Shown here piece after piece: positions 11,228-33,224 of a stretch of DNA of 33,224 bases. Position 1 is the stretch's first letter; the number at the start of each line of letters is the position of its first letter. The DNA comes from Rhizaria sp. SCN 62-66. Lineage: Eukaryota. The notes under the pieces were generated by a model. That model saw only the letters and a program-made list of their open reading frames with translations, was not told the DNA's origin and did not search any database. The stretch spans positions 186,001-219,224 of the forward strand of contig MEDY01000011.1 of assembly GCA_001724265.1 (NCBI GenBank), in the 5' to 3' direction. Both the position numbers and the translations under genes were made by a program.

Positions 11228-11300
11228 AGCCACCGGCGGGGCTCGAACCCGCGGCTAATCGGTTAAGAGCCGAACACTCTACCGACTGAGTTACGACGGC
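11228..11300 (-). tRNA. tRNA-Lys, anticodon CTT
   Basis: Minus strand reads GCCGTCG TA ACTC AGTCGGTA GAGT G TTCGG CTCTTAA CCGAT TAGCC GCGGG TTCGAGC CCCGC CGGTGGC T. This gives a full cloverleaf with A and B boxes and no encoded CCA. Confidence 0.93.
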
Positions 11301-12156
11301 AATCGTAAGTTTTAATCGAGTAACGAATTACTTGATGGGGAAAGAGCTGAATTTGCTAATATCTATAGTTATAGTAATTCATATAGAATGTCACACGTCT
11401 GCATAAATAATTTCATGTGTGTATAATATATCAAGTATTTCTGACTCATCATAATCCTAGATAATCAATATCAGCGTTATTAATAAAAATATAAAACGAA
11501 ATGCAAATGTCGCTCGAAAAAAGCGGAGCTCAAAGCTTAAAGCGGCGGAAAACAAAGCTGACGGGGCGGACGAGACCTACGGAAAAGCTCATATGCGCTT
11601 GGAAATCGCAATATTAATGGTTTTTTAAAAGAGTATAGTTTATTAGAGCAACAATTTTATATGTTTTAAAACATTAATTGATCTTTCAAGGGCACTGTCT
11701 CGTTCAATTAGAAGTTGAGTTGCGTTTCTTCGGCCGAAGAATGCAGCCGAAGGAGACATACGAAGGCCAAATTACGTTACGAGCTGGTTGGAGGATAAAG
11801 CGTTACAAATCAAAGTGGGATGGAAGTTTAAAGAATAATGAAAGGGTTGGGATAAAATATTCATTTGTATTAGGTTGTGATTCTCATGTTTATACCCTTT
11901 GGAGAGACCAAAGTGCGCACTTTGTGCACACTTGAGATGCAGCAAAACACTGATGTGATTTACTTGTTTCGCAAACAAAACGAAAAAAGAAAAGGGCAAG
12001 AGAGGAAAACATTGGACACAAGATACTGACCTAGAGGACAGTCAGTGGCTTTTTAGAAAAAAAAGAAGAAGGAACTCGTTAAGAAAGAAAGAAAGAGAGA
12101 AAGTCGGTCATAAACAACATGCTGCGCAGTTTACGCACAACAGGAGCGTCAACAGC

Positions 12157-15100: not shown

Positions 15101-18100
15101 CTGTTGCTGTTGCCGTTGTTGCCGCAGCAGAGCGCGGCGGCGAGCGGCGGCCCCGCGAGGTCGAGGTCCGGCACGCGGCAGCACCGCGGCGCCGCGCCCT
15201 CGGCGACGGCGCGCGCGACCTCCTCGTCAGAGCCCAGGCGCTGGCGCAGCGCGCGGTAGAAGGCCGCAAAATGCCGCGCCGGTTCGGCAAGCCCGCAGTC
15301 GACGAGCACGGAGCGCTCGACAAGCCGCATGCGCGTGCCGCGCGGCCACACAGCGGGGTCTTCCTCCCAGTGCGGGTGCGCCTCCGCGCAGCCGTCGATG
15401 CGGCCGCATGGGCACTGCACGTAGCGCCGGTACACGAGGAGCGGCAGCGCGGCGTAAGCGTCGACGAGCCGCTGCAGGTCGCGCGGCCGCACCGCGCCGC
15501 GGGGACGCGATTGGCCCGGCGGCGGCGCCAACAGGGACACGGCCGCCGTCGCAGGGGCGGCGCTCGAGAAGCTGCAGCTCGTTGGGTCGGCAGCGTTTCT
15601 ATCCTTGCTGGCGCTGGCGCTGGCGCTGGCGCTGGAGAGAGCGAGAGCGGCCTTGGAGCTGGAGAGAGAGAGCTCGGTGCCGCTGCTGCCGGGGACCGCG
15701 GCGGCCGCGGCGGCGGCGGCGAGCGCGGCGGCCGACGCCGACGCCGACAGCGGCACGGTCGCGCCGCCGCCGCCGTCGCACTCGCCAAGCGCCTCGCCCG
15801 CGTCGGCGTCGCCGGCCGCGGCGGCGGCGTCGGCGGCCGAGGGCGGCGCGATGCCCAGGCGCACGGCCAGCGCGCGCGGCGACAGCGGCGGCTCGCCGCG
15901 CTGCCCCGCCTGGCGCGCGTTGGCCGCGATCACCGACGCCTTGGCCGCGCCGAAGAGCCGGCGCCGCTTGTGGTGGCGGCCCGCCAGCCCCGGCAGCAGC
16001 GCCGCGGGCGGGCCCATGCTCCCAGCGCCCGAGCTCGCGATCGCGCTCGCAGTGGTGGTCGCGGCTGGGGGACTGAAGGGCGGCGCGGGCGCGGACGCGG
16101 GCGCCAGCGCCAGGGCCGGCGGCAGCGATCCCGCTCCCGCACTGTTGTTGTTGTTGCTGTTGCTGTTTTGCGCCGCGAGCATCGGACTCGCTGCCGGCGT
16201 GCCCGCGACCGACGACCCGCCGGACACGTTAGCGGTGCCGGCATTTGCGCTGTTCGAGGCGTTCGCGGCGTTGGCCAGCGCGCGGGCGACGGCGGGCGCG
16301 CGGCGCGGGTCGTAGGCCGATGCGGGCAGCGCGGCCGCCGTCGAGGCGCGGCTTAACTTGTGTGATCCACGCGGCACGAGCAGCGGCGTGAGCAGGCGTA
16401 GCGGCAGCAGGTCCCAGAGAGCGAACACCGGCGCGGCGGGGCGCGCGCAGGCCGCCAGCGCGGCGAAGCCCAGGCCCGCAACGCTCTGCTGCTGCGCGGC
16501 ACTGCCACTGCCGCTGCCGCTGCTGCTGCTGCTGCTGCTGCTGCCAGCGGCGACTGGCGCGCTCTCGGCATTGACGCTGACGAGGCCGCTGCTGGCGTCG
16601 CCGCTGGCAGCGGAGAGCGCGGCGGCGGCGGCGGCAAGCGTCTTGCGCTGCGCGTGGGCGACGTCTAGCGCGCCCGCGGCGGCGGCGAGCGAGTCGGCGG
16701 CCAGCGCGGCGAGCTTAGCGCGGCCGGCGGCAGACAGCCCCGCGCCGTAGGCCGTCTGCACCGTGGCGGACAGCGCGCCGGCGCGGGCGGGCCAGGTGGA
16801 GGGGCGGAACTCGGCCAGCGAGGCCGCCACCTGCGACGACACGACCGGCGCGGCCTGGGGGGCAAAGGACTGGGACGAGAAGGGCTGGGATGCAAAGGAC
16901 GAGGAGAGCTGGGCGGCGGCGGCGCGGGGCGCGAAGGCGGGGATGCCTCCCGGCAGCGGCAGCGGCAGTGGCAGCGGGAGCGGCACCGAGGTCGACTCGG
17001 GCCCCACGGCCATCGCGGCGGCGCTGCTAGGGTCGCTGTTGTTCAGGTTGGCGTTGCTGGGGAGAGAGCTGGTGCTTATCGAGGTGAGCACGCTCGGCTG
17101 CAGCATCTGCCCCTGCTGTTGCTGCTGCTGCTGCTGCTGAATCTGCTGCTGTTGCTGGGCATCGCCCGCGCCCGTGCCCGCGGCCGCAGGAGCGGAGGCG
17201 GAAGACGAGGCTGAGGGCGAGAGCAGAGAGTGGCTGGCCGGCGGCGGCGACTGCGGTTGTGGCTGCGGTCCCAGCGCCCCCGAAGCGGGCTCAGGGGTCG
17301 GGGCCGCCGCGGTGGGCTTGCAAGTCGGAGCATTCGCACCCGCGGCGCTGCCCGCAGCGGCTTCGGCGTGCGGCAGAGAGAGGGCTGGCACCGCAGCCGA
17401 GGACAGCGACGACGACGACGACTGCTGCTGCTGCTGTTGCTGTTGCTGTTGTTGCGGGGTAATGTTGCTAGCGAGACTGAAGACGGAGGCCAGCCGCGGC
17501 GAGCCCTGCAGCCGCCTCTGCTGCTGCTGGGTCACCCCCGCGGAGCCCATGCCCGCACTCGCGCTGGCGCTGGTACTGGCGCTGGCGCTGGCGGCGGTGA
17601 GCCGCGGCGACCCGTGCCCATGCGCAAGCCCCAAGCCGTGGCCTTGGCCGAGGGCGAGGCTGTGCGACAGCGGCGCGGGGAGCTGCTGCTGCGGCGGCGG
17701 CGGCAGCGTGGGGACGAAGAGCGAGAGCGCGGGGAACGAGGCGTCGACCTGCTGGGGCGCCCACCGCCATAACAGCGCCAAAGCGGCGCGCGAGAAGAGC
17801 GCGCTGCCGGCGCAGTCCTCGCACACCAGCAGCGGGGACACAATGCCGCCGCCGCCGCCGAGGGAGGAGCCGTCGGCTGCGGCCCCGTCCGCGCCCGCAG
17901 CGCCGCCGCCGCCGCCGGCCGGCTGCGACAGCGTGGCCGCGGTCGAGCCGGCACCAACAGTGCCTGGGAACGGGTTGCTGCTGTTGCTGTTGCTGTTGCC
18001 GCCGCCGCTGCTGCCGGAAGGGTCGTCGGAGCACGCGTCCGCAAAGGCGTCGACGCGGTGCCGCGCCGCGATGTCAGTGGCCTGTAGGCACACTGCGCAG

Positions 18101-19086
18101 CGCACCAACACCGTCACGGCGGCGGCGGCGGGAATGAGAGCGCCGGCGCTGGCGCCGTCCGCGGTCGTCAGCGCCGTCCCAGTCGCGGACGACGGCGGGA
18201 GCGGCGGGATCGCAAAGCCGGGGCCGGGCGCGGGTGTGGGGGCGAAGCCGGGGGACGCGCGGCGAGATTGCGACTGAGACTGAGACTGAGACTGGGGACC
18301 GGTCCCGCCAGCGGTGGCGGCAGAGGACGACGACGAGGAAGACGAGGGGGAGAGGAATGCGGAGCCGGTGCCGCTGGGCGTGGTGTAGCGCAGACTGATC
18401 GCGGTGGCGGATCCCGGGAATGCTGCCGCCGCTGACGACGACGACGACGACGACGAGGACAAGGCTGACGACGAGGACGAGGACGTTGGAGAGAGTGCAG
18501 ACAGCACAGAAGCGCCAGCATTCGCGGCGGGGCCAAACTGCGGCGTAGTGCGCGCGCTGGGCGTGCCGCTGGCGGCCGGAGCCACGTTTATGATGCCGGT
18601 GGCACCGGCGGGCGAGGCGAGCGGGGCGCGAACGAGGCGTGGACGGGCAGTGAGCTCCAAAGCAACCCACCAGCGCTTGGCGCGGCGGAGCTCGAAGGGC
18701 GTGAGCGTGCGCGCGGGACCGTAGGCCGCGCGCAGAGACTGCGGGAGGTCGTCGAAGTAGGAGCGAAGGACGTCGGAACGCATCGCGGAGCACGTGCGTT
18801 CGAGGCGGGCGCGGGCGTTAGCTTCGAGAAAAGACGCGATCAACACACGAACATGCTCGGGAAGCGCCATGAATGGGCGTGCACCGGGGCAGGGCGCGGC
18901 AGGGACGAGGGCCTGCATGTCGGAGGACTCGGAGACGGAGGCGCAGGCTGAGACAGAAGCGGGGAGCGGCAGGGCGGGCGTCGGCGCGGCGGCGCGTGTG
19001 TGTGGGTCCCGGCCAGGAGAGGCAGAGGGGGCGGGCGCCGATAGACCCGTTCCCGCGAGCTGTTGCGGGAGAGACTGGCGATTCAT
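12157..19086 (-). CDS. 2309-aa low-complexity protein with N-terminal F-box-like motif and scattered Cys clusters
   Basis: Uninterrupted ATG-to-TAA ORF with coding-like GC bias. LPEHVRVLIASFLEANARARLERTCSAMR (~18778-18864) fits the F-box consensus. Also contains CAVC...CEDC, CPCGRIDGC, the basic RHHKRRR segment and poly-Q/S/A tracts. Confidence 0.82.
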   Translation of the reverse strand: MNRQSLPQQLAGTGLSAPAPSASPGRDPHTRAAAPTPALPLPASVSACASVSESSDMQALVPAAPCPGARPFMALPEHVRVLIASFLEANARARLERTCSAMRSDVLRSYFDDLPQSLRAAYGPARTLTPFELRRAKRWWVALELTARPRLVRAPLASPAGATGIINVAPAASGTPSARTTPQFGPAANAGASVLSALSPTSSSSSSALSSSSSSSSSAAAAFPGSATAISLRYTTPSGTGSAFLSPSSSSSSSSAATAGGTGPQSQSQSQSQSRRASPGFAPTPAPGPGFAIPPLPPSSATGTALTTADGASAGALIPAAAAVTVLVRCAVCLQATDIAARHRVDAFADACSDDPSGSSGGGNSNSNSSNPFPGTVGAGSTAATLSQPAGGGGGAAGADGAAADGSSLGGGGGIVSPLLVCEDCAGSALFSRAALALLWRWAPQQVDASFPALSLFVPTLPPPPQQQLPAPLSHSLALGQGHGLGLAHGHGSPRLTAASASASTSASASAGMGSAGVTQQQQRRLQGSPRLASVFSLASNITPQQQQQQQQQQQSSSSSLSSAAVPALSLPHAEAAAGSAAGANAPTCKPTAAAPTPEPASGALGPQPQPQSPPPASHSLLSPSASSSASAPAAAGTGAGDAQQQQQIQQQQQQQQQGQMLQPSVLTSISTSSLPSNANLNNSDPSSAAAMAVGPESTSVPLPLPLPLPLPGGIPAFAPRAAAAQLSSSFASQPFSSQSFAPQAAPVVSSQVAASLAEFRPSTWPARAGALSATVQTAYGAGLSAAGRAKLAALAADSLAAAAGALDVAHAQRKTLAAAAAALSAASGDASSGLVSVNAESAPVAAGSSSSSSSSGSGSGSAAQQQSVAGLGFAALAACARPAAPVFALWDLLPLRLLTPLLVPRGSHKLSRASTAAALPASAYDPRRAPAVARALANAANASNSANAGTANVSGGSSVAGTPAASPMLAAQNSNSNNNNSAGAGSLPPALALAPASAPAPPFSPPAATTTASAIASSGAGSMGPPAALLPGLAGRHHKRRRLFGAAKASVIAANARQAGQRGEPPLSPRALAVRLGIAPPSAADAAAAAGDADAGEALGECDGGGGATVPLSASASAAALAAAAAAAAVPGSSGTELSLSSSKAALALSSASASASASKDRNAADPTSCSFSSAAPATAAVSLLAPPPGQSRPRGAVRPRDLQRLVDAYAALPLLVYRRYVQCPCGRIDGCAEAHPHWEEDPAVWPRGTRMRLVERSVLVDCGLAEPARHFAAFYRALRQRLGSDEEVARAVAEGAAPRCCRVPDLDLAGPPLAAALCCGNNGNSNSGSASCGTGDIGVAADSDSGGADAAGAGECLRALGRLIVPPAALLTVTNAPAANNSNGSGGGKSKSGGKRMGEDDAEDDDNDEDADAQCTCSQSKSESGSQLLSCEQRADADGSGAALTASATGSVVLSLTRCIGPATATAMATVTANAAAAEGKCGACVRRALASAGFVRARAACRFPVLRAHDGLVLSAARSRALTFAFTPAEAAAAVAHALPPAVRLHADGAACRHDGACGSGAQAQVQAQAQAQAQAMTADGNAASASASAAACGGGGEGAQSVRLARLLAQRLAHPYAPLAAGPLLPWFDADGCYHAGEADITTALGNAHVDAVLHQSNSIGGEAGASAADGASASVGPGAGDSLGVCQGKTVNIVGACTRPRLLLPGTASPTNASASTSDDAARWLALTGAQLAAVGARRALPSVTQSEPALASLARALLKPDNNSSVRESWASETARAAAAATAAMGALSATARDAIHAAMAASSASANSNANAVSVGANLTGGAAPGAAAAAAAAALVTVAATAAVSAGLGHALGCGSTSNSAHALAHGYGPSHGHGHGYGSGRGQSHALGSPSLAAAAAVAAPASAPAAVSLGLPAFSLAPPSAVSAHAGFASSGANAAITPTLTTPADGDARGDARANAGSNGGGGNNNNMSMNMNVSTGGGSGLGLNSSLMTDMNTPLPPAAGPAAAAGLMPMTDADPVSNADNGNNNGTAVTTDSNAAAAAASAGSARLGQRRASLKRGRDEGSPLLAANPNAANVNVGNYSDASVAAGVLPMLLAADAERDGDARNGVFVLPPAARGRSDSSGSARTGGAGAVAAAEAEADLAQQRAPQAIAHSRSRSGSGSSAHTNAHTRSSAHSQARSQRSHGMGVSAGDAVDDADSPNGNGDGDNNDDDDEDGDGLELPKNGAASASSAARAHGTPQSYSRSQRAPHNGNGNGVAASPPPPSSTSSSVSGSPPTTGAGSSRAGRARGVPKKFQGL

Positions 19087-19116
19087 AACAGAAAAGCAGG
19101 GGGCAGCCGTAAAAAT

Positions 19117-19195
19117 CTGTTGGAAAAGGCGAGAGAGAGCTAGAAACGCTGTTTTAAGTGGTCGATTTGCAGGGGAGCAATAGAGGTGAGCTTAC
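19117..19195 (-). other. Probable 5'-UTR intron of the large F-box-like gene
   Basis: GTAAGC donor at 19195, then a pyrimidine tract and ccaacag acceptor ending at 19117, 30 nt before the ATG. The upstream exon has an in-frame TAA and no intervening in-frame ATG. Confidence 0.6.
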
Positions 19196-20858
19196 GTCAG
19201 TGGTGAGGAGCAAGATGGAGACTTTGAGGATATAGATGAAGATGATTTGACAAGACAATAAGATGAGCCATTACAAAAACACAAGACACAGTCGGAAAAA
19301 TAGCCGAATGCACTTGATGTGTCCGATTTACACTCGATAAGAACGATGCTTTTGAACGTCTTCTGAGCCTCTGATCCAACCACAAATCGTTTTCGTGCAT
19401 GCTTGGTCACCCGGATCAGAAATCACACATTTCAAAGTGCTTTATCGGTTCATCTGGGCTCATTTGGAATAAAATTGCGGGTTTTGCATAAGACGCTATA
19501 TGATACTGTATGAACTTTGAGGGCATGCAAATTGGCTACGATCATTCGTGTGTATTTCTGGTCTGCTGTGCTGAAGGAGCGAATCTGCGATCGGATCTCA
19601 ACACCGATATGCAAGTGATCGTCGTGTTCCTGCAACAGGATCTCGGTGTGAATAGGTTTTTATTGAGAGTTAGAAGTCATACATTGATTAATGCGTCTTG
19701 TTAAAATGTTCTATGTGGTTGTTTCTCGTACTTCAATTTGACCATGAACGGTTTGGGCACAGAATAATTGGGTTTTGGGTTTTATTATGATTCTAACATC
19801 GTCATACAGTCTCGATTATATAAGTATTATAAATGTTCTGACAATCTTCATTCATATGTTTCTTGGGTTATTGTTGTTTCTTGACTATTGGTTGCTATTT
19901 TGCGCCAGCACTAACCTTACCTCATCATCAACACACACAAACAAGGTTTGCGGGCTCATGGGGCTTCAGCTTGACTTGACTCCACTCTTCGTAGCTGGGC
20001 TAAAAATGTAACGCAGGACAGTTCTGTGCAGCCATCCATACGCAATGCGCATTGCCGTGTGTCAGATTGGGCTCAGGGTTCACCTCGAGAGCCACACATC
20101 TAACACAGTCGCAATCAAACGCAAATACACACACAACCACACAGACTATCGCGTGTTACAAGCTAGCGCTCGCGCAAATCGCTTGCGCTCACACTTACAC
20201 GGTCACACACTCTACACTAGCTAATCTCACTCTTACTCACTAACAAACAAAAGAAAACACTGCACATTTGTACACACACAAGACACAAAGTACACAACTG
20301 TAAAAAACGCGACTTCAATAACAAAAAACAAAAATAAAGAGCAAGCAGAGCAAGTACAATACGATCTCGCGATTGCTCAAGTAGAAGATAGGTAAGGTAA
20401 GATTACCATATCTGCATCTGAGCCAGCGCAGCTATTACAGCGCGCAAAGCCAGAGTTGCTAAAGTTGTCGTTGTGTTGCTGGTGTGTGACGTGTGTGCCG
20501 TCACTGTGTGTGTGTTTGTTGTGTTAATGTTAGTTTGTTGGTTGTTTTCCACCTCATTCTCCTCTCCATCATCAATATACCTTTCTCCGCACGCGTTTGA
20601 CACTAGCACTCGCACTCACGTTCTGAGATGAGTGGATGAGCGATCGGGGCGCGCACGTGCAGATGATACATAGCGTTGACTGTTTGACCGACTCACATGC
20701 CTGACTTCACCGGCTACGATATTGTCTTTGCCGACAAAGAGATGAGACGAGATGATAATGTTGTCTCGGACAGATCGATGTCCGATGACACACCTTTGCA
20801 CCGCCGCTGTCGCGCTTACTTGGCTTATTTGGATAGTTCGCGCTGCTTGCGTGCGTGC

Positions 20859-21839
20859 TTACTTCTTGGCGGGGGCGATCTTCTTCTCCTGCGGCTTGAG
20901 GACCTGGAACGAGCACATGAGCGACTCGTCGATGCTCATCATGGCGCCTGCGTTGTCGTACTCGTCGCAGTAGTTGGGCGCCGAGAAGATCGTCACCAGG
21001 CGGCGCTTGGCGAAGAAGTCGTAGCCGTCCTGCACGACCTGGTGTGCGCGACAGACCAGGTCCAGGTCGTGCTTCTTGAGAAAGCGAGCCACGACGTCGC
21101 CGCCGAAGGTGTAAGACACGCCGCGGTCGTTCTCACCCCAGGACAAGATGTCGCGGTCGGGATCGGACCAGAGCAGGTCGCACATGATGCCCGTGTCGGG
21201 CACATCGGCGGGACGCATGATGCGGCGGATCTGCTCCATCGAGTGGTGTTCGGGGGAGAGACCGCCGTGGACGCAAAAGATCTTCTCGTCAACGACGGCG
21301 GCGACGGGGAGGCAGTTAAAGCAGTCGGTGAACATCTTCCACACCTTGACGTTGTAGCGGCGACGGCACTCGTCGTGGAATCCGTAGATGCGGTTGATGT
21401 TCGCGCACTCGTGGTTGCCACGCAGGAGGAAAAAGTTCTCGGGGTACTTGATCTTGTAAGCGAGCAGGAGGCAGATGGTCTCAAGCGACTGCTTTCCACG
21501 GTCAACGTAGTCGCCCAGGAAGAGGTAGTTGGCGTCGGGCGGGAAGCCGCCGTACTCAAACAGACGCAGGAGGTCGTAGTACTGGCCGTGGATGTCGCCG
21601 ACGATCTTGATCGGGGCCTCGAGCTCGAGCAGCATGGGCTGGGAGAGGAAGATCTCGCGCGAGCGCAAGCAGAGGTTGCGCAGCTCCGTCTCTGTCAGGG
21701 CTACCTGCTTGCCGGGACGCTTGCCGCGGACCGACAAAAGGTTCTCGATGATAGTATCGACGTTGAAGTTGTCGGCGCGCGCGCCGGTGCCGGTGGCGCT
21801 GAAGTTCGGACCAGTCTGGCCAGCGGGAAACTGAGCCAT
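20859..21839 (-). CDS. PP1: Serine/threonine protein phosphatase 1 catalytic subunit, ~326 aa, intronless CDS
   Basis: PPP motifs GDIHG, GDYVDRG, LRGNHE, RAHQ and SAPNY. PP1-specific sequences [22 protein letters not shown] and [16 protein letters not shown] at 21839-21837; TAA stop. Confidence 0.97.
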
Positions 21840-23071: not shown

Positions 23072-23185
23072 CTCTCGTGCCAAACCCCTTCCTGCCTCTT
23101 CGCAGCCCTGCAGCTTCGCGCTCAGCACTCGCCCGCGCCCCCGCGTCACTTCCCCGCGCTTGTCGCGAGTTTTCCCCGCTGCCCG

Positions 23186-26100
23186 ATGCAGGCGAACGCG
23201 TACGTGGCCGAGGCCGGCGACGATGATGACGATGATAAGAAGACATCCTCGTTCCTTACTAAGACCTTCGCGATGGTCTCCGACCCCGCGAACGCAGCCA
23301 TCGTGGCATGGAGCGACGCCGGAGACGAGTTCATCGTCAAGAACGAGCACGCCTTTGCCGCTTCGCTGCTGCCCGCGCACTTCCGTTCACAAAACTTCTC
23401 ATCGTTCGTGCGGCAGCTCAACTTCTACGGCTTCCGCAAGCGCACGTGCGCGAGCCAGGCGTCGGTGTTCAAGCACCCGTACTTCCGCCGCAACCGGCGC
23501 GACCTGCTGGCGAACATCAAGCGCAAGGTGAGCGAGCCTGCATCGCAGACGTCGCAGTCTGTGCGCGACTCGCTGACTTCGCTGCAGTCGCAGGTGACGG
23601 CGCTGCAGCACCAGTACGCCGACATCTGGGCGCTGCAGAACAACATCCTGTACCTGCTCACCCGCGCCATGTCCCGCGACGCCTCGGACGCGCGGCTGCC
23701 GGCGCAGATGATTAACGTGGTCGCGCCCTCGGCGGCCCCCGCGCTGCCACAGCTGGGCCACTACGACGCCTCGGGCGCGCCTATTGTGCCCCCGCCGTCA
23801 TCCTCGTCGTCGGCGCACGCGGGCGGCGCGGGCGGCGTGGCACTGGGCCAGATCTCGATGCCCGGCCAGGGCCACGGGTACCCGCAGCACCTCCAGGGTT
23901 CGGGCCCGCAGTTCAGCGTTGGCGGCGTTGGCGGCGGTGCTGGCGGCCACGGCGCGGGCCCGCCGCCCGTGGGCTCGGCGGCGACGCTCGTCTCCAACGG
24001 CGGCATCGTGACATCGTACGAGGACGCCGTGGCCTCGGTCTCGGCCGCTGTCTCGGCCACGGACGCCGCGGGCAACTTTGCACAGTTCCGCCACCAGGGC
24101 GCCTACCCGCAGCAATACGGCTACGGCCACAGCCACGGCCACGGCCACGGCCACAGCCACGGCCACGGCCACGGCCACGGCCACGGCCACGGCCACCATG
24201 GCCACGGGCTGCAAGGGCTGGGCAACGCGCTCAACGCGCAGAACATGGCCACCAGCGGCAGCAGCAGCAGCGGTAGCGGCGGCAGCGGCGTCGCGCTCTC
24301 GGCCGGCGGTGGCGCTGGCGGCGGTGGCGGCCTGACCAGCGGCGGCGCAGTGGTGCCGTCGTCGGGCGCATTCTTGCACCACTCGGCCTACGGGATGGGT
24401 GGCGCGGCGCGGTCGGGCAACCCCGCCGAGCTGGGCCAGTACACCGGCGTCGGCATGGGCCCGCACACCAGCGTTGGCGGCAGCGTTGGCGGCGGCAGCG
24501 GCGGCGCAGTCGGCGCGCTCGTGCCCGCCGGCGGCGGCGCGGGCGCCGGCGTGGGCGGGTTGATGGGCGGCTTCGGTTACCACCACGGCGCCCACGGGCA
24601 CCACGGGCACCACAGCCACGGCCACGGCCACGGGCACCACGGCCACGGCCTTCAGCCGCTGGCGCTGACGCTGGCGCCGCCCGTGCCGGTCGGCCCCGCG
24701 GGCGCCGGCGGCGAGGGCAGCGCGGTGCGCATCCGCGCGCTGCCCGACGACGAGTACCTCGACGACGAGGACGACGATGACGACGACGACGACGGCGACG
24801 AGGGCGGCGACAAAGACGACAAGAGCAAGGGCAAGAAGGGGAGCGGCAACAAGGCCTCCTCTGCTGCCGCCGCGGCCGCCGCTGCCGCCGCCGCCGCCCC
24901 GGCGTCTTCCCGCGCCCGCCGCGCTAGTACCCGCAACAGCGCCGCCTCTGCCGCCGCCTCCACGCCCGCGGTCACGGCCGCTAAGGACAGCGCCGCGGGC
25001 GCGGGCGCGACCGAGGAGATGCGCGACGGCCGCTCGCGCCGCGCCCGTCTCTCGTCCTCGTCGTCCTCCGCTGCGGCCGCCACTCCGAACGCGGGGGTGA
25101 TCTCGCTCCCCATGCTGCCCCCCGCGCCCCAGGGCAACTCCAACAGCGCGGGCTCCAGCAGCAGCAGCAGCTCGAGCAACAGCGGCGGCATCAACAGCAT
25201 GAGCGGCTCGATGGCCGAGGTTGCGCGCCTGACATAGTTGGTCGCCGCGCTGCCGAGGCCGCCCCGCACGGCGTCCTCCGGCGGCGGCGTCAACCTCTCG
25301 GCGCTGCCCGGCCTCTCCGCGGCGCTCTCGGCTGCCACGGCCGCTGTCGGCGTCGCGTCGCCCTACAACAGCAACGGCTACGCACAGCAGCAGTACTATG
25401 GCGGGCCCATCGCGGACGGCAGCTCGCCCTACACGGCGGCGCAGCGCGGGCCGGCGTTTGCGTACCCTCTCACCGTCGCCGGCAACTACAACAACAGCAA
25501 CAACAGCAACAACAGCGGCGAGAACGGCGAGAGCGGCGTGTCCATCTCTGCCGTGTCGACCCGCAGCCCCAGCCCCGCGTCGGGCTCCGCGTCTCCGCAA
25601 CAGCTGCAGCAGCACTTGAACCGGCTCACGCAGCTCTCGCAGGCCAACGCCGCGCGCTCGGCCCGCTTCCCCGCGCCGGCCCCGATCTCCGCGGTCACCG
25701 GCAACAGTCCTTTGTCCGCCGCGACCGGCGCCGCCGGCCCGGGGGGCCTGCTGGGCGCCGCGCTCGCGGGCGGGTCCGCGCTGTCGCTGCCGATCGCGGC
25801 CGGCGCCAACGCCGCCGCGGCCGCGCAGGGCGCTGGCGTTAGCCTCCCCACGGGCGGCGCGCTCGTCCCGCATAGCAGCAGCAGTAGCAGCAGCAACGCG
25901 GCTGGCCCGCTCGGCGGCTTCAGCTTCAGCGGCGCCTACGGAGGTGGCGACGGCGGCTACGGCGGCTACGGCCTCGGCGGCGGCTTCGGCGGCTCGGGGC
26001 TGACCCCTGTCGCGCCCAACGCCGGCCTGCGGTCTCCGCTGCAGATCGAGGAGGTGACCCCGACCAGCTCCACCGTCTCGGACAACACGCCCGGCGGGCC

Positions 26101-26893
26101 CAACAACGCCGCCGCCGGCGCGTTGGCGACGCCCATGTTCCGCGGCGTGGCGGCGGGCGTGCGCTCGCCGTCGCCCGCGCTGCTGCGGTCCGCGCTGCTT
26201 GCGCCCGCGCCTCTCATGCCCGCGCTCTCGGGCCCCGTCGCGCTGCCCGCCTCGGCCATCCCGGCCGCGGCCGCGGTCGGCGCGCACCCGCACGGGGGGC
26301 TCGTGGCCGGCGCGCTGGGCACGGACGCGTCGCTGGCCTTTACGCCCAGCGGCGGCGTCATCTCGGCGCACGCCGCGCGCGCCGCCGCCGCTGCCGCTGA
26401 GGCTGGTGTTGGCGCGGGCGCGGGCGGGCTGCCCGGCCTGCCTGGCGCTGGCGCTGGGGCTGGGACTGGGGCTGGGACTGGTGCGTCGACGGCGCAGGTG
26501 CGCGTGCCGGCGACGGTGCCGCTCGGCGCGACCGTGCCGCCCTCGTCCGCGCTCCCGGCCTCGGCCGCGGCCGCCGCTGCTGCTGCCGCCGCCGCCGCCG
26601 CCGCCGCCGCGGACGCCGCGATGGCGTCCCCGTTCCTGCCGTCAACCACCCTCCTGGGTTCGAGCAACGCGCACGGCGTGACCGCCGCGCTCGGCGGCGC
26701 TCCCACCGTCGCGCCTGCGTCTGCGCCTGCAGCTGTGTCTGCTGCGACGAGCAGCAGCAATGCGGGCGAGCCGTCGGTCAAGATCGAGCAGGTCGAGGGC
26801 GACGACCATGACGAGCCCGCTATGAAGACGGAGACTGAGGCTAAGGGCAAGGGTGCGCAGCGCGGCGGGCGTCGAAGCTCGAAGCGCTCTTAA
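23186..26893 (+). CDS. HSF: Heat shock factor (HSF)-type transcription factor; 683 aa if TAG 25235-25237 terminates, 1235 aa if it is decoded
   Basis: HSF DNA-binding domain FLTKTFAMV...IVAWS...HFRSQNFSSFVRQLNFYGFRK...FKHPYFRR...LLANIKRK, followed by an HR-A/B-like heptad region. The same frame continues for 551 codons past the TAG to TAA at 26891-26893, where the sequence turns AT-rich. Confidence 0.88.
24125..24196 (+). repeat. (GGCCAC/AGCCAC)n hexamer repeat encoding a Gly-His tract in HSF
   Basis: Twelve consecutive hexamers are visible, with a second degenerate His/Gly tract at ~24580-24650. Confidence 0.9.
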
Positions 26894-27155
26894 ATAATAT
26901 TTGCATTATTCTTAGCACGACCATTTCAACACAAAACATCACACAGTAACACAAACAACAGAAGTGAACACAGACTAGTCAGTAACGTAATAGTCGGGTC
27001 GCATCAAAAGATAGCATATTGTTTCAGCATAATTTATGAATATGAGGTTACGTAGTATTGTACAATAATATGTACATGGAATATACAAACATTAATTGTA
27101 TTTAATTTCGTCAATACGTCGCCGATTTTTTTTTGTATTCTATATGAAAACCAGT

Positions 27156-27187: not shown

Positions 27188-27994
27188 TAAGCCTTGCATT
27201 GCAATATCACAACGAAAGAATTGGACCGAATTGATCGGTTCGTAACAGAGTATTAATATTGGTTGTGTATTATTATAGATACGAATATAAAAAAGTGATT
27301 ACCTTCGCGTTTGTGTACTTGGGAGTTTATGTTTAGGGTTTTTGTTAGTATTGTTTCACAATTGAAAAGCAGGGTCTCACTCTCCCTTGCAAGCATGCTA
27401 CGAGTTCCCCAGTTTGTGCATTCTACAAGCCACACATAGCCAGCGCGCGTCACATCACGAAGCAGGTCAAACAGAGAGACCTGCACACGTGAATGCGATA
27501 TTTAGAGCTGAATTGGGCGTCGTAGGACAAAAAAGGAGAACTCGACAAGAAAAAGCAAAGCAATGCGGCGCAAGGAGAGTAAGAGAGTGGCAGCGACGGG
27601 ACGCACGCCCGCAAACGGCGGTGCGCAGCGCCTCGGGGGCGAGGAGAACGATGTTGAGGGATACAGAGGATGAGAGAGAAGAGGAGATAAGGCACGGGCG
27701 CACCAGAGCACCCGCGTCTTTAAATATCAGTCCCCTGCTGAGTCACACACACTGGCAGTTCGATACTGTGAACTGCAGTAGCGCGAGGCGGGGGACAGGG
27801 CGCGGCAGCAACAAACTAAGGCTGCGCGCCGCAAGGAGAAAAGAGTCACACACACAGAGAAACAAACAGAGAGCGAGAGCGAGCAGATAGACATAGCACT
27901 GGTCTTCAAGAGGAGGTAAAAAACTGGAGTTGATTGATTTTTGTTTTAATCAAGTCACTCACAACTCTCGCTACGAGCTGGATTGTTTGCCTGC

Positions 27995-30806
27995 TTACTC
28001 GGCCTTGGCAGCCTTGGGGGCGGTGGTGCGGGGCTTCTCAGCAGCAGGCGTCGCAGCAGCAGCAGCAGCGGCAGCGGGCTTAGCAGCAGCAGCGGCGGGA
28101 GCGGCGGCGGCGGGCTTGACAGGGCCGTCGAGGGGCGCGAGGAAGGTGTTGTTGACGGCGGGCGCCACGGTGGTGGTCTTGAGCACGTACGCGGACTTGA
28201 CCTTGCCGTACGAGTTGCGCGACACGGGGAACGCCGTGGAGCAGTTGGCCATGTTGGTCGACGCGCGCGCAATGACGTTGTTGAGGTAGTGGTTCTCAAG
28301 CGCCTTGGGGATGGCGCCGCGCAGCGCGGGGGCCGCGGCCTCGGTGGCGATGGGCGCGATGGAGCCCGCCTCGACGGCGTCGAGCGCCAGCGCGCCGGGA
28401 GCCACCATGGCCATGCGCTCCTTGAGCTCGGGGAGCGTGTTGTACGGCAGCGTCACGCCCAGCACCTCGGAGAGCGCGCGGACGACCTTCCAGTTGTCGC
28501 GGGCCTCGCCCTTGGCGCTGGTGGCCGCGACGGTGATCTGTGCGCGGCCCTCGGTGTTGACGAACGTGGACATCTTCTCCGTGTGCGCGGTCGATGGCAG
28601 GATGACGTCCGCGGCGGCGGCGCCGACGTCACCGTTGTGGCCCTGGTACACAACGAAGGCGTTGGTGGGGAGCGTCTTCTGCACGGCCTCGTTGTCGGCG
28701 TTCATGAGGTACACGAACTTGGGCGCGGGCGCCGACGCGGCCTCGGGGCCGGGCACGAAGCCAAGGTCCTGGGCGGCCACGCGCGCGGCCTCGGTGTGCA
28801 GCACAGAGAGGCCCTTATAGCCGTTGAGCGCGGGGAAGTTGGCGGCGAAGGCGGCCATCACGGCGGGCGCGCTGGCGCCGGCGCCCTGCATGAAGCCCTG
28901 GCCGAAGATGACAAGGGGCTTCTTGGCGGCGGCGAGGCGCGCGGAGAACTTGTGCTTGTTGTTGGCGATGTCGGCCACGATGGACATGTCGTCGCCGATG
29001 AAGTTGCAGCGCATCGCGAGGTCGGCCTCGGGGCCCACGGCGTAGACGGGCAGGTCGCGGGTGAAGTCGTTCTTGCGCATGCGGGACGCGACGATGGGCG
29101 CCTCCATGCGCGGGTTGGAGCCGACGAGGAGGACGCAGTCGGCGTCGTCGATGGCCGCGATCGTCGAGTTGAACGTGTACTGCGCGCGGAAGTCGGCGGG
29201 CAGCTGCGTCTCGGACGCGTAGTAGGTGTTGTCGGAGCCGAGCGCGGACATGAGGTCCTTGAGCGCGAGGATGCCCTCGGCGTCGGCGAGGTCGCCGGCG
29301 TAGGCGCGCACCTCGTTGGGCTGCAGCGGCGCCAGCGCGGCGCGAATGGCGATGAGGGCGTCGGACCAGGAGCAGCGCTCGAGCAGACCCGTGGTGGCGT
29401 TGCGCTTCATGGGCGTGTCGAGACGCTGGCGGTTGAGGCCGTCGAAGGCGAGGCGAGAGCGGTCGGACAACCACTCCTCGTTGACGCCTTCATGGAGACG
29501 CGGGAGCACGCGGAGCACGTCGGCGCCGCGGGTGTTGACCTTGACGTTGGAGCCGACGGCGTCCATGACGTCGACGGAGTCCACGCCGGCGAGCTCCCAG
29601 GGGCGCGCCTTGAACATGTAGGGCTTCGAGGTGAGGGCGCCGACGGGGCAGAGGTCGACGACGTTGCCGGACATCTCGGAGTCCCAGTTCTGCGGGGTGT
29701 AGGTGCCAATCTCGGACTGGTTGCCGCGGCCAGTGACGCCGAGCGTGGGGACGCCGGCGACTTCCTCAGCGAAGCGCACGCAACGGGTGCAGTGGATGCA
29801 GCGGGTCATGATCATCTTGACCACGGGGCCGATCTCCTTGTCCTCGACGGCGCGCTTCATCTCGCGGAAGCGCGACAGGTTGGAGCCGTACAGCACGGAC
29901 TGGTCCTGGAGGTCACACTCACCACCCTGGTCGCAAATGGGGCAGTCGAGCGGGTGGTTAGCGAGGATGAACTCGAGCACGCCTTCACGGGCCTTCTTGA
30001 CCATGGGCGTCTCGGTGTGGATGCGCATGTTGGGCATCAGCGGGTACGCGCACGACGCCACGGGCTTGGGCACCTTCTCGACCTCGACGAGGCACATGCG
30101 GCAGTTACCGGCGACGGAGAGACGCTCATGGTAGCAGAAGCGGGGCACGGTGAAGCCAGCCATCTCGCACGCCTGGAGCACAGTCGTCGTCGTCGGGACC
30201 TGGATTTCGACGTCGTTGACGTACACGGTCGTCATGGCTGTGTGAGAATTAAGGCAGTGTCAGTGTGGTTGAAGCAAGTAAGCAAGAGGCGTGCGCGAAA
30301 GAAAGCGGAGTAGGAACGTTGGGGAGGTGAGCAGGCAGGGTTTCGAAAAACATGCACAGACAGGGTTAGGAGAGTTCCAGTACGAGTGAGAGGGCGTGGA
30401 ATAGCAACGCCACCTCATAGGGATCACCAGGGCAAAGGCTGTGACGCATAGTGATAAGCGGAGCGCCGTGCGCGCCCGCCGTGAGTGCTCGTTTGCGAGA
30501 GGAGCGGTGGGGGGTTATGACAGCAAGAGCCTATCAAAAGGGGTGCGGAGCAACGCCCGCTAAGACTGTCTGGCTCTGCGAGCAATGCGAGAGGGTATGA
30601 CAAATGCGGCTACATCAAGAATGAATGCAAAAAAAGATACGTGCCCCTGTTACGGGGCACGGGAGAGATGCGCGAGACGTACCGACAGTGCTGAGCCGAT
30701 TGAGGCTCGCAGCAGTGGTGGCATTCGAAGTCGACTGCACCGCGCGAACGGTGGAGCCAACCAGCGAGGAACCAACCTTGGAAATTCCGCGACCAAGGCC
30801 AAGCAT
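27995..30806 (-). CDS. NDUFS1: NADH:ubiquinone oxidoreductase 75-kDa Fe-S subunit (Nad11/NuoG homolog), nucleus-encoded; join(complement 30806..30683, 30237..27995), ~788 aa
   Basis: Fe-S motifs CYHERLSVAGNCRMC, HPLDCPICDQGGECDLQ, CIHCTRC and DLCPVGAL. Exon 1 (MLGLGRGISKVGSSLVGSTVRAVQST...) resembles a mitochondrial presequence. The GTACGT donor at 30682 and cacag acceptor at 30238 are both phase 1. Confidence 0.95.
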
Positions 30807-31847
30807 TTTTATAAAATTACTTGTGCTAGGAGTGAACACAAGTCTCCACAGAGCCACTTTTATGGTCATCTTTGGGCCCAGCCTTCGCCCGCCGGCGCGA
30901 AGTTAAGCCGCTAGAGTGCCTGTGGACTGTGGGACTAGCTACCAGTCCAACGGACCCAAACGACAGCTAAATCGCGTCATATCTAGTGCAGCACACAGGT
31001 CTAGGATGATGTGTGTTGGATATTTTGTTTTCTTCTTAAACGTAGCGGCACTTGGTAGTTCGTGTTTTATCTAATGGCGCGTATATTGCGTTCTATCGGC
31101 AATGACGTTGATGGCGGGCCGCACTTGCGTTGATGGTGCAAATCTTCACTGTTGAGTCTACAGCTATGTCATGCGAGTGGAATGCGTTGCTTTTTGAATG
31201 TTGCCGCTTTTTAAGTGATGTATAATGGGAGATTGCGGCTATTTCTTTCAGCAGAAGTCGTTTTGCCAGTAATCTGCCTCTCTGAACCAAGCTGGGAGGC
31301 CCAATGCCTCGGAGCGAAGTTTCGTACTTTGTTGTGTCTGGTACTCGATCAAGAATCCGTCACAAAAGTGGTTATAGGCGTTGGACGCAATATTATATCT
31401 TGGGAGTATCTGATTTTCAATTATTCTGCTTGAAAATGAAATCTTGACGTGAATCTTCACTTTTTACTGCGCCAACTTGCCAATGGCTCTTCAGCACATT
31501 GCTCTGGTGCGCCTCCTGAGCTCGCAAATGTGACCGGCAGTCTCCTTTTCGCATCTACTTCTGATTATGAGTAGTTCTTGCCGTTTTAAACGCTAGGATT
31601 ATGATTTTATGCTACAAATGTTTGTTATGTACTCGCTGGACCAACTGATATCTCATCTAGCTTCGCCCCGTAACAGGCTAGATGAGAATGTACGTCACAT
31701 AATCACAAGTCGCTTGGGGTCTGCCCATAATTCTATCATAAATAACTATGTGTATTTCAAAAATATATTAGAACTATGAAGTAACATTGAAAGAAGGTGC
31801 TCCAGATGCATTGAAAATGCAATCTGCTGCATGCTTTGCTGCGTCGC

Positions 31848-33224
31848 TCAGTGCATTCCCGCCGGCCTGGCATCGATCCCAACGGCCCGCGCAGCGCCGG
31901 CCAGCGCGCGCTTGCGCAGCCCGCCGCTCGCCCCGCCGGTGCGCCCTGCCGCGGCCGCAGCCGCCGAGGCAACCCCGTCCACCATTGCGTTGCCGATCCC
32001 GCCCAGTCCGCCAAGCCCGCTGTTCCCAGTGCTCTCAGCGACGGCTGCGGGCCTGTCTGGGCGCAGCGCGGCGAGGGCGTCTGCGCCGGCCGCAGCGGCG
32101 AGTGCGGCGGCGGCGCGGACCTGCTGCCAATTGAATGCAGCCCACAGCGCGATGACGACGGCGGCGAGCAGCGCGGCCAGAGGGAAGACGAGCCGCGCGC
32201 CGCGGCGCCGCAGCAGCCGGGCGGCCGCGGCGGGCGCGCCGGCGCAGGCGGCCCCACCCAGCGCTGCGGGCGCAAGCAGGGACAGCAGGTCCGCAAGCTC
32301 GGAGCCGGCGCCCGCGCCCGAGGGCGGGGCCGCGAAGACGAGCGCTTCGGGCAGCGCGTACGCGGCGGCGGGCTCCAGCGTGCGCAGGCCGTGGCTGGCG
32401 CTATGCTGGGCGTTCGCATTTGCACTGCTCGCGCTCGTATTGTTAGCGTTGTTGGCATTATTGGCGTTTGCGGTTACGTTCGCGCTAGCGGCGTCCTTAG
32501 GGGCAGAGGCGAGGTAGTGGCGCGAGGAGCGGAAGAGCGTTGCCAGCGCGTTGGGCGGCAGCGACGCCACCACCAGCCCATCGCCCTTCGCTCCAGTCGC
32601 CGCGCTGGCGGTCCCGATAGGCCCACTGGCACTGTTGCCGTCACCGCGCTTGCTGCCCACCGTCGGCGGCCTGAGGTCCGGGGGCGCGCCGGCGATCGCC
32701 GCGGCCTCTGCTGCAGCCGCAGCGACCGCCGCGGCGCGGTCGCCGACCTCCCAGCCCATCAGCAGCCAGTCGGCGTCCGCGCCCGCGCCGCCGTCGCTAT
32801 CAGTTTGCGTCGTCTTCGGGTTCGTGTTGCCGTTGTGGGCGCGCGCGGCGCGCAGCATGTCTGCGACCGAGGGAGGGCCGGCGGCGGCGGGTGCGCGGGC
32901 GGGCCGGTAAGTGAGCGGGTAGCACGCGCGCAGCAGCGGGCCCGTCGCGGGGTCCGCGCCGTGCGCGATCACCGTGCGCAGCACCGCGTCCAGCAGCGCG
33001 GGCAGCGCGCTCAGCGAGGACCCGGCCCAGGACGCCGCGGCGGCCACGGCGGCGGCGTCGGGCGCGGGCGCGGCCGGGTCTGCGGGCGCGAACAGGGACA
33101 GCGCCTGCGAGGCGGCAGCGGGCGGCGGTGGCGGCAGCGCGGGCACCGGGTGCGCTGCCGTCGCCGCCGCCACGGCCTCGGCTTCGGCCGCCGCGTCGCC
33201 GCGGCGCGCGCGCACGGCCGCCCG
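31848..33224 (-). CDS. Hypothetical Ala-rich protein, 5'-partial, with one C-terminal transmembrane segment
   Basis: Frame is open from the window edge to TGA at 31850-31848 with coding-like GC bias. The hydrophobic stretch LVFPLAALLAAVVIALWAAFNW is preceded by a basic RLLRRR segment. Confidence 0.72.
   Translation of the reverse strand, partial: RAAVRARRGDAAAEAEAVAAATAAHPVPALPPPPPAAASQALSLFAPADPAAPAPDAAAVAAAASWAGSSLSALPALLDAVLRTVIAHGADPATGPLLRACYPLTYRPARAPAAAGPPSVADMLRAARAHNGNTNPKTTQTDSDGGAGADADWLLMGWEVGDRAAAVAAAAAEAAAIAGAPPDLRPPTVGSKRGDGNSASGPIGTASAATGAKGDGLVVASLPPNALATLFRSSRHYLASAPKDAASANVTANANNANNANNTSASSANANAQHSASHGLRTLEPAAAYALPEALVFAAPPSGAGAGSELADLLSLLAPAALGGAACAGAPAAAARLLRRRGARLVFPLAALLAAVVIALWAAFNWQQVRAAAALAAAAGADALAALRPDRPAAVAESTGNSGLGGLGGIGNAMVDGVASAAAAAAGRTGGASGGLRKRALAGAARAVGIDARPAGMH

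What the first reader, a model, noticed from the sequence alone, without database searches (positions are those of the whole stretch)
25220..26893. Single in-frame TAG in the middle of the HSF gene: candidate UAG reassignment or programmed readthrough
Seen in sequence: ...GCG CGC CTG ACA TAG TTG GTC GCC... The same frame stays open for 551 more codons with unchanged GC3 bias and amino-acid style, and no in-frame ATG occurs for ~300 codons after the TAG. The AT-rich UTR-like sequence begins only after TAA 26893. The extension carries psi-K-x-E SUMO-type motifs (VKIE at 26777-26788, MKTE) and a basic NLS-like C-terminus. None of the eight gene ends in the window uses TAG (5 TAA, 3 TGA). The context RLT*L recurs as RLTQL at 25622-25636, which weakly hints at Gln. 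Established knowledge: nuclear codes with UAG alone reassigned while UAA remains stop are rare but known (Leu in an uncultured rhizarian, Gln in Iotanema spirale). Inference: this is either a variant genetic code with a rarely used UAG sense codon or regulated readthrough giving short and long HSF isoforms.
Basis: partly seen in the sequence, partly recalled or inferred. Interest (0 to 1): 0.88.

Follow-up and report, generated by a model that had tools for sequence, protein, structure and literature searches.

The report
Real in-frame UAG splitting an HSF gene
A heat-shock transcription factor gene of an uncultured, GC-rich wastewater protist carries one genuine UAG stop codon in the middle of an otherwise intact 1,235-codon reading frame; it is most likely a young nonsense mutation in a weak termination context, and a changed genetic code is possible but unproven.

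Summary
TAG at 25235-25237 lies in the frame of an HSF gene (ATG 23186; Pfam HSF DNA-binding domain). The same frame runs 551 more codons to TAA 26891-26893, with the same codon bias throughout. The base call is sound: DNA contigs of other runs cover the site with 0 differences. A 356-nt contig from a polyA metatranscriptome of a separate study also crosses it with 0 differences and no gap. That rules out an assembly error and shows no splice and no edit in the one RNA contig that crosses the site. It does not show that the UAG is translated.

The extension has no homolog in 1.84 billion representative proteins, so no ortholog comparison was possible. No genome is held, so tRNA-CUA and eRF1 could not be tested. 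Within the window TAG ends 0 of 8 genes, a weak hint. It also occurs only once in about 7,400-7,900 coding codons and never in conserved genes. Known UAG-only codes use it several times per gene. About 72-80% of one-step nonsense routes here lead to TAG anyway. Both codons flanking the TAG are rare, which is unexplained.

Best reading: a recent nonsense allele, perhaps leaky. Readthrough or reassignment remain live rivals.

The parts
23186..25234 (+). HSF coding sequence upstream of the TAG (683 codons from the first ATG)
   Evidence: ORF, first ATG. Pfam HSF_DNA-bind E=6e-28. GC3 is about 0.9.
23252..23527 (+). HSF-type DNA-binding domain (residues 23-114)
   Evidence: Pfam PF00447, 97.8 bits, profile positions 1-100 of 100. 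Relatives with 50-58% identity over the first 210 residues.
25235..25237 (+). In-frame TAG (codon 684)
   Evidence: Read. Covered with 0 differences by DNA contigs X2 record 5 and X3 record 12 (24911-25373) and by RNA contig X5 record 30 (24977-25332).
25219..25254 (+). Candidate local hairpin that places A-UAG-UUG in a 7-nt loop; not statistically supported
   Evidence: It is in the MFE of the 41-nt and 76-nt folds but absent from the 121-nt fold. Z-scores are -0.82, 0.06 and -0.67.
25238..26890 (+). 551-codon continuation of the same frame with full coding signature and no known homolog
   Evidence: GC3 0.80-0.94. Codon score +0.40 bits per codon in this frame only. 105 of 5000 shuffles are stop-free. 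0 hits in 1,835,955,588 proteins. No Pfam family.
26777..26833 (+). C-terminal tail with two hydrophobic-K-x-E motifs (VKIE, MKTE), followed by a basic end
   Evidence: Read. Calling them SUMO-type sites is an inference from the motif alone.
26891..26893 (+). TAA where the coding-type composition ends
   Evidence: GC of the next 60 nt is 0.32.

Best explanation
This is one HSF gene of 1,235 codons that was translated through to TAA 26891-26893 until very recently in evolutionary terms. It now carries a single, real UAG at codon 684. I think this UAG is most likely a young nonsense substitution in the strain that dominates these samples, and not a sign of a different genetic code. The original codon was probably CAG (Gln).

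On this reading most ribosomes stop at the UAG. They make a 683-residue HSF that keeps the DNA-binding domain and the adjacent conserved region. The UAG is followed by U, whereas all eight real terminators in the window are followed by a purine. A minority of ribosomes may therefore read through with a near-cognate tRNA and still make the full-length protein, which would soften the defect.

Shown here:
- The base is real in DNA and in RNA contigs.
- It is neither spliced out nor edited in the one RNA contig that crosses it.
- The downstream frame carries the organism's coding signature.
- The context differs from that of the real terminators.

Inferred:
- That the mutation is recent.
- That the original codon was CAG.
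- That termination predominates.
- That any readthrough occurs.
For: 1. The coding signature runs unbroken across the TAG and ends only at the TAA. The extension was therefore translated over evolutionary time and is not an old UTR.

2. TAG behaves like a stop in the rest of the window. It appears once in about 7,400-7,900 in-frame codons. Position-specific composition of the extension (T1 0.116 x A2 0.142 x G3 0.377) would give roughly 6 TAG per 1,000 codons if the codon were free to occur. There is no TAG in NuoG (754 aa) or PP1 (331 aa).

3. In this GC3-rich coding sequence, 996 of 1,383 one-step routes to a stop give TAG. In the HSF gene it is 171 of 215. A random nonsense mutation would therefore be TAG about three times in four, so the identity of the stop says nothing about the code.

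4. All contigs that match the gene in X2/X3 and the contigs listed for X5 show 0 differences. The samples appear to carry one strain, so seeing TAG in each of them does not show that it is old or fixed in the species.

5. All 8 terminators are followed by a purine, and 6 of the 8 by GC. The TAG is followed by TTG. It therefore does not look like an evolved terminator.
Against: 1. TAG ends 0 of 8 genes. If TAG made up 20-30% of terminators, a share I recall from standard-code eukaryotes and did not compute, the chance of this is 0.17-0.06.

2. Both neighbouring codons are rare: ACA is 4.5% of Thr codons and TTG is 5.5% of Leu codons. Only 24 of 7,260 codon positions in the window's genes have neighbours this rare on both sides. 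A single random point mutation does not predict that. A selected context, or a clustered GC-to-AT event from ACG CAG CTG, would. I noticed this pattern after looking, so it deserves a discount.

3. The 1,653-nt extension shows no decay at all: no second stop, no frameshift, and third-position A at 1%. This requires the mutation to be very young.

4. RNA contigs also lie 570-730 nt downstream of the TAG (X5 record 31, 25805-25966). The transcript is therefore present despite a premature stop.
Confidence: 0.48

Rival explanations
1. Programmed (evolved) readthrough. The UAG is kept by selection and is decoded at a regulated rate, giving a short 683-residue HSF and a long 1,235-residue HSF with the K-x-E tail.
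For: The downstream frame is intact and fully codon-biased. The context is unlike any of the 8 terminators, with +4 U instead of G or A. Both flanking codons are rare, true of only 24 of 7,260 positions, as if the context were selected. The transcript is present across and beyond the UAG.
Against: UAG-UUG-GUC matches none of the readthrough contexts I know of: UAG-CARYYA, UGA-CUAG, or +4 C. These are recalled, not from a call. The 100 nt downstream fold no better than shuffles (z -1.52; 16 of 200 shuffles fold at least as well). A 551-codon extension is far longer than typical readthrough extensions (recalled). Conservation cannot be shown because no ortholog of the extension exists in the databases.
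Confidence: 0.2
2. Genome-wide reassignment of UAG to a sense codon, used very rarely, with UAA and UGA as the only terminators. The residue would probably be Gln. This would be the exLh or Iotanema type of code.
For: TAG ends 0 of 8 genes, against 5 TAA and 3 TGA. TAA predominates even though A-ending sense codons are rare. One in-frame TAG is not far below the rarest sense codons here: AGA, CGA and TTA are about 0.5-0.7% of their families, or 2-4 occurrences. The NuoG tree places the organism in an unnamed clade outside animals, fungi and green plants, so nothing is known of its code.
Against: There is one TAG in about 7,400-7,900 codons and none in conserved genes. Known UAG-only codes have 384 in 71 genes and 204 in 126 genes (PMC5304391). 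The only tRNA in the window is Lys-CTT. The TAG identity of the stop is expected from mutation alone. Eight terminators are too few to carry weight.
Confidence: 0.12
3. Conditional RNA editing of the stop. An A-to-I change would make UAG read as UGG (Trp), as in the premature-stop correction of filamentous ascomycetes. The full frame would be restored only in some conditions.
For: The middle A has U at -1. Short folds put A-UAG-UUG in a 7-nt hairpin loop closed by GC-rich stems. The abstract of PMC11156358 (search listing) describes this preference: hairpin loops and U at -1, with frequent editing of UAG. The rare AU-rich flanking codons would help keep the loop open.
Against: The RNA contig across the site has 0 differences. 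The hairpin is not better than shuffles and disappears in the 121-nt fold. The organism falls outside fungi in the NuoG tree, and this editing is known only from ascomycetes.
Confidence: 0.04
4. An intron removes the TAG. Either it is the 18-nt GT..AG stretch 25220-25237, whose length keeps the frame, or a larger intron.
For: GTTGCGCGCCTGACATAG starts with GT, ends with AG, contains CTGAC, and is a multiple of three in length.
Against: RNA contig X5 record 30 is continuous over 24977-25332. All 3 introns seen in the window are 98-131 nt, have GC 0.40-0.46, start GTACG and end CAG. No GTACG lies within 1.2 kb of the TAG, and local GC stays at 0.63-0.82. Codon periodicity is unbroken.
Confidence: 0.01
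5. The TAG is the long-standing natural end of the gene, and 25238-26893 is merely a GC-rich 3' UTR that is open by chance.
For: GC-rich DNA keeps long frames open. The opposite strand has a 947-codon open frame over the same region.
Against: GC3 of 0.80-0.94 against 0.62-0.85 at positions 1 and 2, in this frame only. The codon score is positive only in this frame. 105 of 5000 shuffles are stop-free. The 60 nt after seven of the eight terminators have GC 0.32-0.60, whereas the 60 nt after the TAG have 0.80 (the row labelled TBC? there is not the true end of that gene). The terminator context is missing.
Confidence: 0.02

Closest known systems
Premature termination codon (nonsense allele) in a natural isolate, with basal near-cognate readthrough
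   Same: There is a single in-frame stop inside an otherwise intact, codon-biased ORF. The stop is the one that mutation produces most often here. It sits in a poor termination context.
   Different: Both flanking codons are unusually rare. No intact allele was seen in any contig. The window also happens to hold no TAG terminator.
UAG-only nuclear code variants: rhizarian exLh (UAG=Leu) and Iotanema spirale (UAG=Gln) (PMC5304391, passages read). Also UAG reassignments in phyllopharyngean ciliates (PMC11687900) and a ciliate in which UAA and UAG differ (PMC10553269); for these two only the search listing was seen.
   Same: UAG lies inside a coding frame, while UAA and UGA are the only terminators seen (5 and 3 of 8).
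   Different: Those organisms carry 1.6-5.4 in-frame UAGs per gene, many at conserved positions. Here there is one in eight genes and none in conserved genes. A tRNA-CUA and eRF1 changes could not be examined.
Programmed stop-codon readthrough in eukaryotic genes and viruses (reviews PMC4615788 and PMC13517186, search listing only)
   Same: There is an in-frame stop followed by a long ORF with a coding signature, and short and long isoforms are possible.
   Different: None of the known contexts is present and no supported downstream structure was found. The extension is 551 codons long. Conservation is untestable.
A-to-I correction of premature UAG codons in filamentous ascomycetes (PMC11156358 and PMC11169179, abstracts in the search listing)
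   Same: A UAG interrupts a full-length ORF. There is U at -1 of the A, and a hairpin loop is possible.
   Different: The RNA contig is unedited. The organism is not a fungus by the NuoG tree. The hairpin is not supported against shuffles.

Membership tests
Heat shock factor (HSF) transcription factors | HSF-type winged-helix DNA-binding domain | tested here: met
   Pfam PF00447, E=6e-28, 97.8 bits against a cut-off of 22, covering the full profile 1-100.
Heat shock factor (HSF) transcription factors | Conserved region (oligomerisation heptads) directly after the DNA-binding domain | tested here: inconclusive
   The best relatives align over 76-88% of the first 210 residues at 50-58% identity. 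No coiled-coil prediction was run.
UAG-only reassigned nuclear genetic code | Many in-frame UAGs across genes, at conserved alignment positions | tested here: not met
   There is 1 TAG in about 7,400-7,900 codons of 8 genes and none in NuoG or PP1. Only a 33-kb window could be examined.
UAG-only reassigned nuclear genetic code | UAG never used as a terminator | tested here: met
   0 of 8 gene ends are TAG, against 5 TAA and 3 TGA. The sample is too small to be decisive.
UAG-only reassigned nuclear genetic code | A tRNA with anticodon CUA | not testable with these tools
   The window holds one tRNA, Lys-CTT. No genome is held.
UAG-only reassigned nuclear genetic code | Altered eRF1 stop-recognition motifs | not testable with these tools
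   eRF1 is not in the window and no genome is held.
Programmed stop-codon readthrough | In-frame extension with a coding signature | tested here: met
Programmed stop-codon readthrough | Known readthrough-promoting 3' context or downstream structure | tested here: not met
   The context is UAG-UUG-GUC. The downstream fold has z -1.52 and the local folds have z -0.82 to 0.06. The list of known motifs is recalled.
Programmed stop-codon readthrough | Stop and extension conserved in relatives | not testable with these tools
   No homolog of the extension was found. The contigs of the 81-83% relatives could not be fetched.
Fungal-type A-to-I premature-stop correction | G read in RNA at the middle A of the UAG | tested here: not met
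   X5 record 30 shows 0 differences. This is one low-depth contig from one condition.
Spliceosomal intron of this organism | GTACG 5' end, CAG 3' end, about 100-130 nt, lower GC | tested here: not met
   All 3 real introns fit this pattern. Nothing like it lies near the TAG, and the RNA contig is unspliced.

The most novel reading that the evidence does not exclude
This uncultured wastewater protist sits in an unnamed clade outside animals, fungi and green plants. It may read UAG as a rare sense codon, probably Gln, and terminate only at UAA and UGA. That would be an early-stage UAG-only code change caught while the codon is still almost unused.
Probability: 0.12. Interest if true: 0.85.

Novelty: new member of a known kind. 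Interest (0 to 1): 0.38.

Why it matters
If the UAG is decoded, there are two possibilities. It could be a new, independent UAG-only code change in a eukaryotic lineage with no sequenced relative, at a stage where the codon is barely used. That stage is the one theories of codon reassignment most need to see. Or it could be a stress transcription factor whose long form is made by recoding.

If it is a nonsense allele, the case is ordinary but instructive. In GC3-rich genomes about three in four nonsense mutations are TAG, and downstream frames stay open for hundreds of codons. A lone in-frame TAG together with few TAG terminators will therefore keep mimicking a code change. The organism recurs in engineered water systems (17 runs from 11 studies listed, most holding only small shares), so the data needed to settle the question probably already exist.

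Tried and rejected
1. **Homologs of the extension.** A word-indexed search of residues 620-1235 among proteins of 679-2162 aa found none. A full HMMER scan of the 551 aa found 0 of 1,835,955,588 proteins at E<=0.001. BLASTP of residues 201-683 and of the extension against the 120 listed HSF relatives gave no hit at E<=10 with SEG filtering.

2. **Orthologous loci.** The HSF N-terminus against metagenome contigs matched 580 pattern stretches, none of them a relative. The 83%-identical NuoG relative P0002 against metagenome contigs gave a best identity of 53%, so its 21.5-kb contig is not in that collection. P0003 against genome contigs returned only bacteria. A DNA pattern around the TAG against genome contigs gave 0 matches.

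3. **Own genome.** None is held.

4. **Earlier notes of this scan.** Nothing relevant was found.

5. **An internal paralogous copy of the TAG region that might show the original codon.** Only low-complexity matches turned up. RLTQL at 25622-25636 is a 5-residue coincidence without flanking similarity.

6. **Depth along the gene** (table 2). It cannot be used: figures are per contig and are inflated by GC-rich repeats from other organisms. Parts without RNA cover say nothing.

7. **X4.** This run does not cover the TAG (depth 0.18), so the diverged strain seen there gives no information on the site.

8. **The many 'joints'.** They have sides of 20-28 letters in repeats, and I disregard them.

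9. **Supplements of PMC5304391** could not be consulted.
Full report
**What is there**

The window is eukaryotic DNA from a metagenome. Coding regions have 65-80% GC and intergenic regions 35-50%. No whole genome is held for it. The finding sits in a gene whose first 683 codons (ATG 23186 to 25234) carry a full HSF-type DNA-binding domain (Pfam PF00447, E=6e-28, residues 23-114).

Codon 684 is TAG (25235-25237). The same frame then stays open for 551 codons to TAA 26891-26893.

**Is the downstream frame coding?**

Yes, by every measure available in the window.
- GC at codon positions 1/2/3 is 0.72/0.66/0.93 in the 830 nt before the TAG and 0.62/0.62/0.94 in the 460 nt after it. GC3 remains 0.80-0.93 to the TAA.
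- All 300-nt windows from 23101 to 26850 peak in the same frame.
- GC falls from 0.785 to 0.39 only after the TAA.
- A codon score trained on the other genes of the window gives +0.40 bits per codon for the extension in this frame. It gives +0.47 for the part before the TAG, and negative or near-zero values in the other five frames. The other genes score 0.33-0.59.
- Keeping position-specific composition, 105 of 5000 shuffles of the 551 codons are free of stops (mean 3.7). The other five frames of the stretch contain 1-13 stops.

So the TAG is not the old end of the gene followed by a UTR. The 60 nt after seven of the eight real terminators have 0.32-0.60 GC, while the 60 nt after the TAG have 0.80 (the row labelled TBC? 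in that call is not the true end of that gene).

**Is the base real, and is it in the RNA?**

The stretch 23100-27000 is held by 17 listed public runs from 11 studies, 3 of them with half or more of its words. I laid four runs.
- DNA contigs X2 record 5 and X3 record 12 cover 24911-25373 with 0 differences. X1, which I did not lay, may be the source of the window.
- In a polyA metatranscriptome of another study (X5), a 356-nt contig (record 30) covers 24977-25332 with 0 differences and 0 gaps. That leaves 258 nt on one side of the TAG and 95 nt on the other.
- Another X5 contig (record 31) covers 25805-25966.
- X4 does not cover the site (depth 0.18).

Caveats apply. These are contigs, which drop minority variants. 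DNA can be present in an RNA library. All matching contigs of X2, X3 and X5 are identical to the window, so these samples seem to carry one strain and are not independent evolutionary witnesses. One X4 contig differs at 8 places in 23100-23557, so a second strain exists, but it says nothing about the TAG.

**Intron?**

No. The window has three recognisable introns, all in the RabGAP-TBC gene: 7630-7727, 10393-10517 and 10710-10840. They are 98-131 nt long with GC 0.40-0.46. All start GTACG and end CAG.

The nearest GTACG to the TAG is more than 1.2 kb upstream. Local GC stays at 0.63-0.82, periodicity is unbroken, and the RNA contig is continuous. The 18-nt stretch 25220-25237 begins GT, ends AG and would keep the frame. 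But it starts GTTGCG and is far below the intron size seen here.

**Comparison with relatives failed**

The extension has no detectable homolog:
- none among 8000 scored candidates of 679-2162 aa;
- 0 of 1,835,955,588 representative proteins;
- no BLASTP hit against the 120 listed HSF relatives.

The N-terminal 210 residues do have relatives: 211 proteins at E<=1e-10 among 3480 candidates, the best at 58% and 50% identity. Their C-terminal parts are not alignable.

The neighbouring NuoG gene has relatives at 83% and 81% identity on contigs of 21.5 and 5 kb. Those contigs might carry the orthologous HSF, but they could not be fetched. Named NuoG sequences are at most about 56% identical.

A quick NuoG tree of 45 rows was built with LG+G4, SH-aLRT support only, and a hand-picked 41 of the 120 listed hits plus three bacterial outgroups. 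It puts the window in a clade of unnamed environmental and transcriptome sequences, outside the animal, fungal and green-plant groups. A single-gene tree is weak evidence for deep placement.

**What the window says about TAG**

Gene ends: TGA at 2866, 6504 and 31848-31850 (minus strand); TAA at 10976, 12157-12159 (minus), 20859-20861 (minus), 26891 and 27995-27997 (minus). That is 5 TAA, 3 TGA and 0 TAG of 8. If TAG usually makes up 20-30% of terminators (a recalled figure), this outcome has probability 0.17-0.06, which is only a hint.

Against reassignment, TAG occurs in frame once in about 7,400-7,900 codons, depending on where gene starts are placed. It never occurs in the conserved NuoG and PP1 genes. 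In the two described UAG-only nuclear codes there are 384 in-frame UAGs in 71 genes and 204 in 126 genes (PMC5304391, passages read). One occurrence is, however, not far below the rarest sense codons here (AGA, CGA and TTA at 2-4 occurrences). A barely used sense codon is therefore not excluded.

That the lone stop is TAG carries no weight. 996 of 1,383 one-step mutational routes to a stop in the window's coding sequence lead to TAG, and 171 of 215 in the HSF gene.

**Context**

All 8 terminators are followed by a purine, and 6 of the 8 by GC (TGA GCG, TGA GCT, TAA GCT, TAA GCA, TAA GCA, TGA GCG). The internal TAG is followed by TTG. It therefore lacks the organism's own termination context.

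Both neighbouring codons are rare: ACA is 4.5% of Thr codons and TTG is 5.5% of Leu codons. Only 24 of 7,260 positions have neighbours this rare on both sides. All three codons can be derived from the commonest codons ACG, CAG and CTG by G:C-to-A:T transitions.

Three explanations are open: chance, a clustered mutation, or a selected context. I noticed the pattern after the fact and cannot decide among them.

Short folds place A-UAG-UUG in a 7-nt loop, but no fold beats its shuffles (z -0.82, 0.06 and -0.67). The 100 nt downstream give z -1.52. The only tRNA in the window is Lys-CTT.

**Weighing**

An old natural stop, an assembly error and an intron are effectively excluded. What remains is a real UAG inside a frame that was translated until recently.

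I put a young nonsense allele first, at about 0.48. It may be softened by basal readthrough in a poor termination context. The reasons are these:
- Such alleles are common in natural isolates (established knowledge, not computed here).
- TAG otherwise behaves as a forbidden codon in the window.
- The samples look clonal.
- Nothing positive shows decoding.

The other readings are ranked as follows:
- Evolved readthrough, about 0.20. It gains from the odd flanking codons and the intact extension.
- Genome-wide reassignment, about 0.12. It gains only from the 0 of 8 terminators.
- Conditional A-to-I editing, about 0.04, following the ascomycete precedent (PMC11156358, abstract in the search listing). 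It is contradicted by the unedited contig and by the organism's placement.

That near-cognate readthrough of UAG inserts mainly Gln, Tyr or Lys is recalled; PMC4150775 was seen only in the search listing.

**Verdict**

On present evidence the interpretation as a code change or programmed readthrough cannot be told apart from a recent nonsense mutation, which I consider somewhat more likely.

Noticed in passing
window 2866-2871, 6504-6509, 12154-12159(-), 20856-20861(-), 27992-27997(-), 31845-31850(-): Six of the eight gene terminators are followed directly by GC, and all eight by a purine. This looks like a strong extended termination signal (stop-GC) in this organism.
   Followed up: partly
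window 7630-7727, 10393-10517, 10710-10840: The RabGAP-TBC gene (ATG 7599, TAA 10976-10978) has three introns of 98-131 nt. All start GTACG and end CAG, with GC 0.40-0.46. The other seven genes show no intron over the parts examined.
   Followed up: partly
window 12157-19191 (-): A 2,344-codon ORF with full codon bias (GC3 0.86) matches no Pfam family.
   Followed up: no
window 27995-30259 (-): The complex I 75-kDa subunit (NuoG/NDUFS1) is nuclear-encoded. Its closest database relatives are at 83% and 81% identity and then at most 64%. In a quick tree the clade lies outside animals, fungi and green plants, so the organism has no sequenced close relative.
   Followed up: partly
window 24080-24200 and 24590-24650: Long His-Gly dipeptide repeats lie inside the HSF protein. 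At 24634 a 3-nt deletion is reported in contigs of all four runs at very high depth (541 of 990 in X2). This probably reflects cross-matching of GC-rich repeats from other organisms and not a variant of this gene.
   Followed up: no
window 23100-23557: One contig of run X4 differs at 8 places from the window here (including G>C at 23510), while other X4 contigs are identical. A second, roughly 2% diverged strain or allele therefore exists, but it does not cover the TAG.
   Followed up: no
window 11228-11300 (-): The only tRNA gene in the window, tRNA-Lys (CTT), lies in the AT-rich spacer after the TBC gene.
   Followed up: no
P0123 (protein), residues about 25-47: The 50%-identical HSF relative from a JGI contig carries an odd hydrophobic insert inside the DNA-binding domain. 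It looks like an unspliced intron translated by a prokaryotic gene caller. The window's gene has no intron at that place.
   Followed up: no
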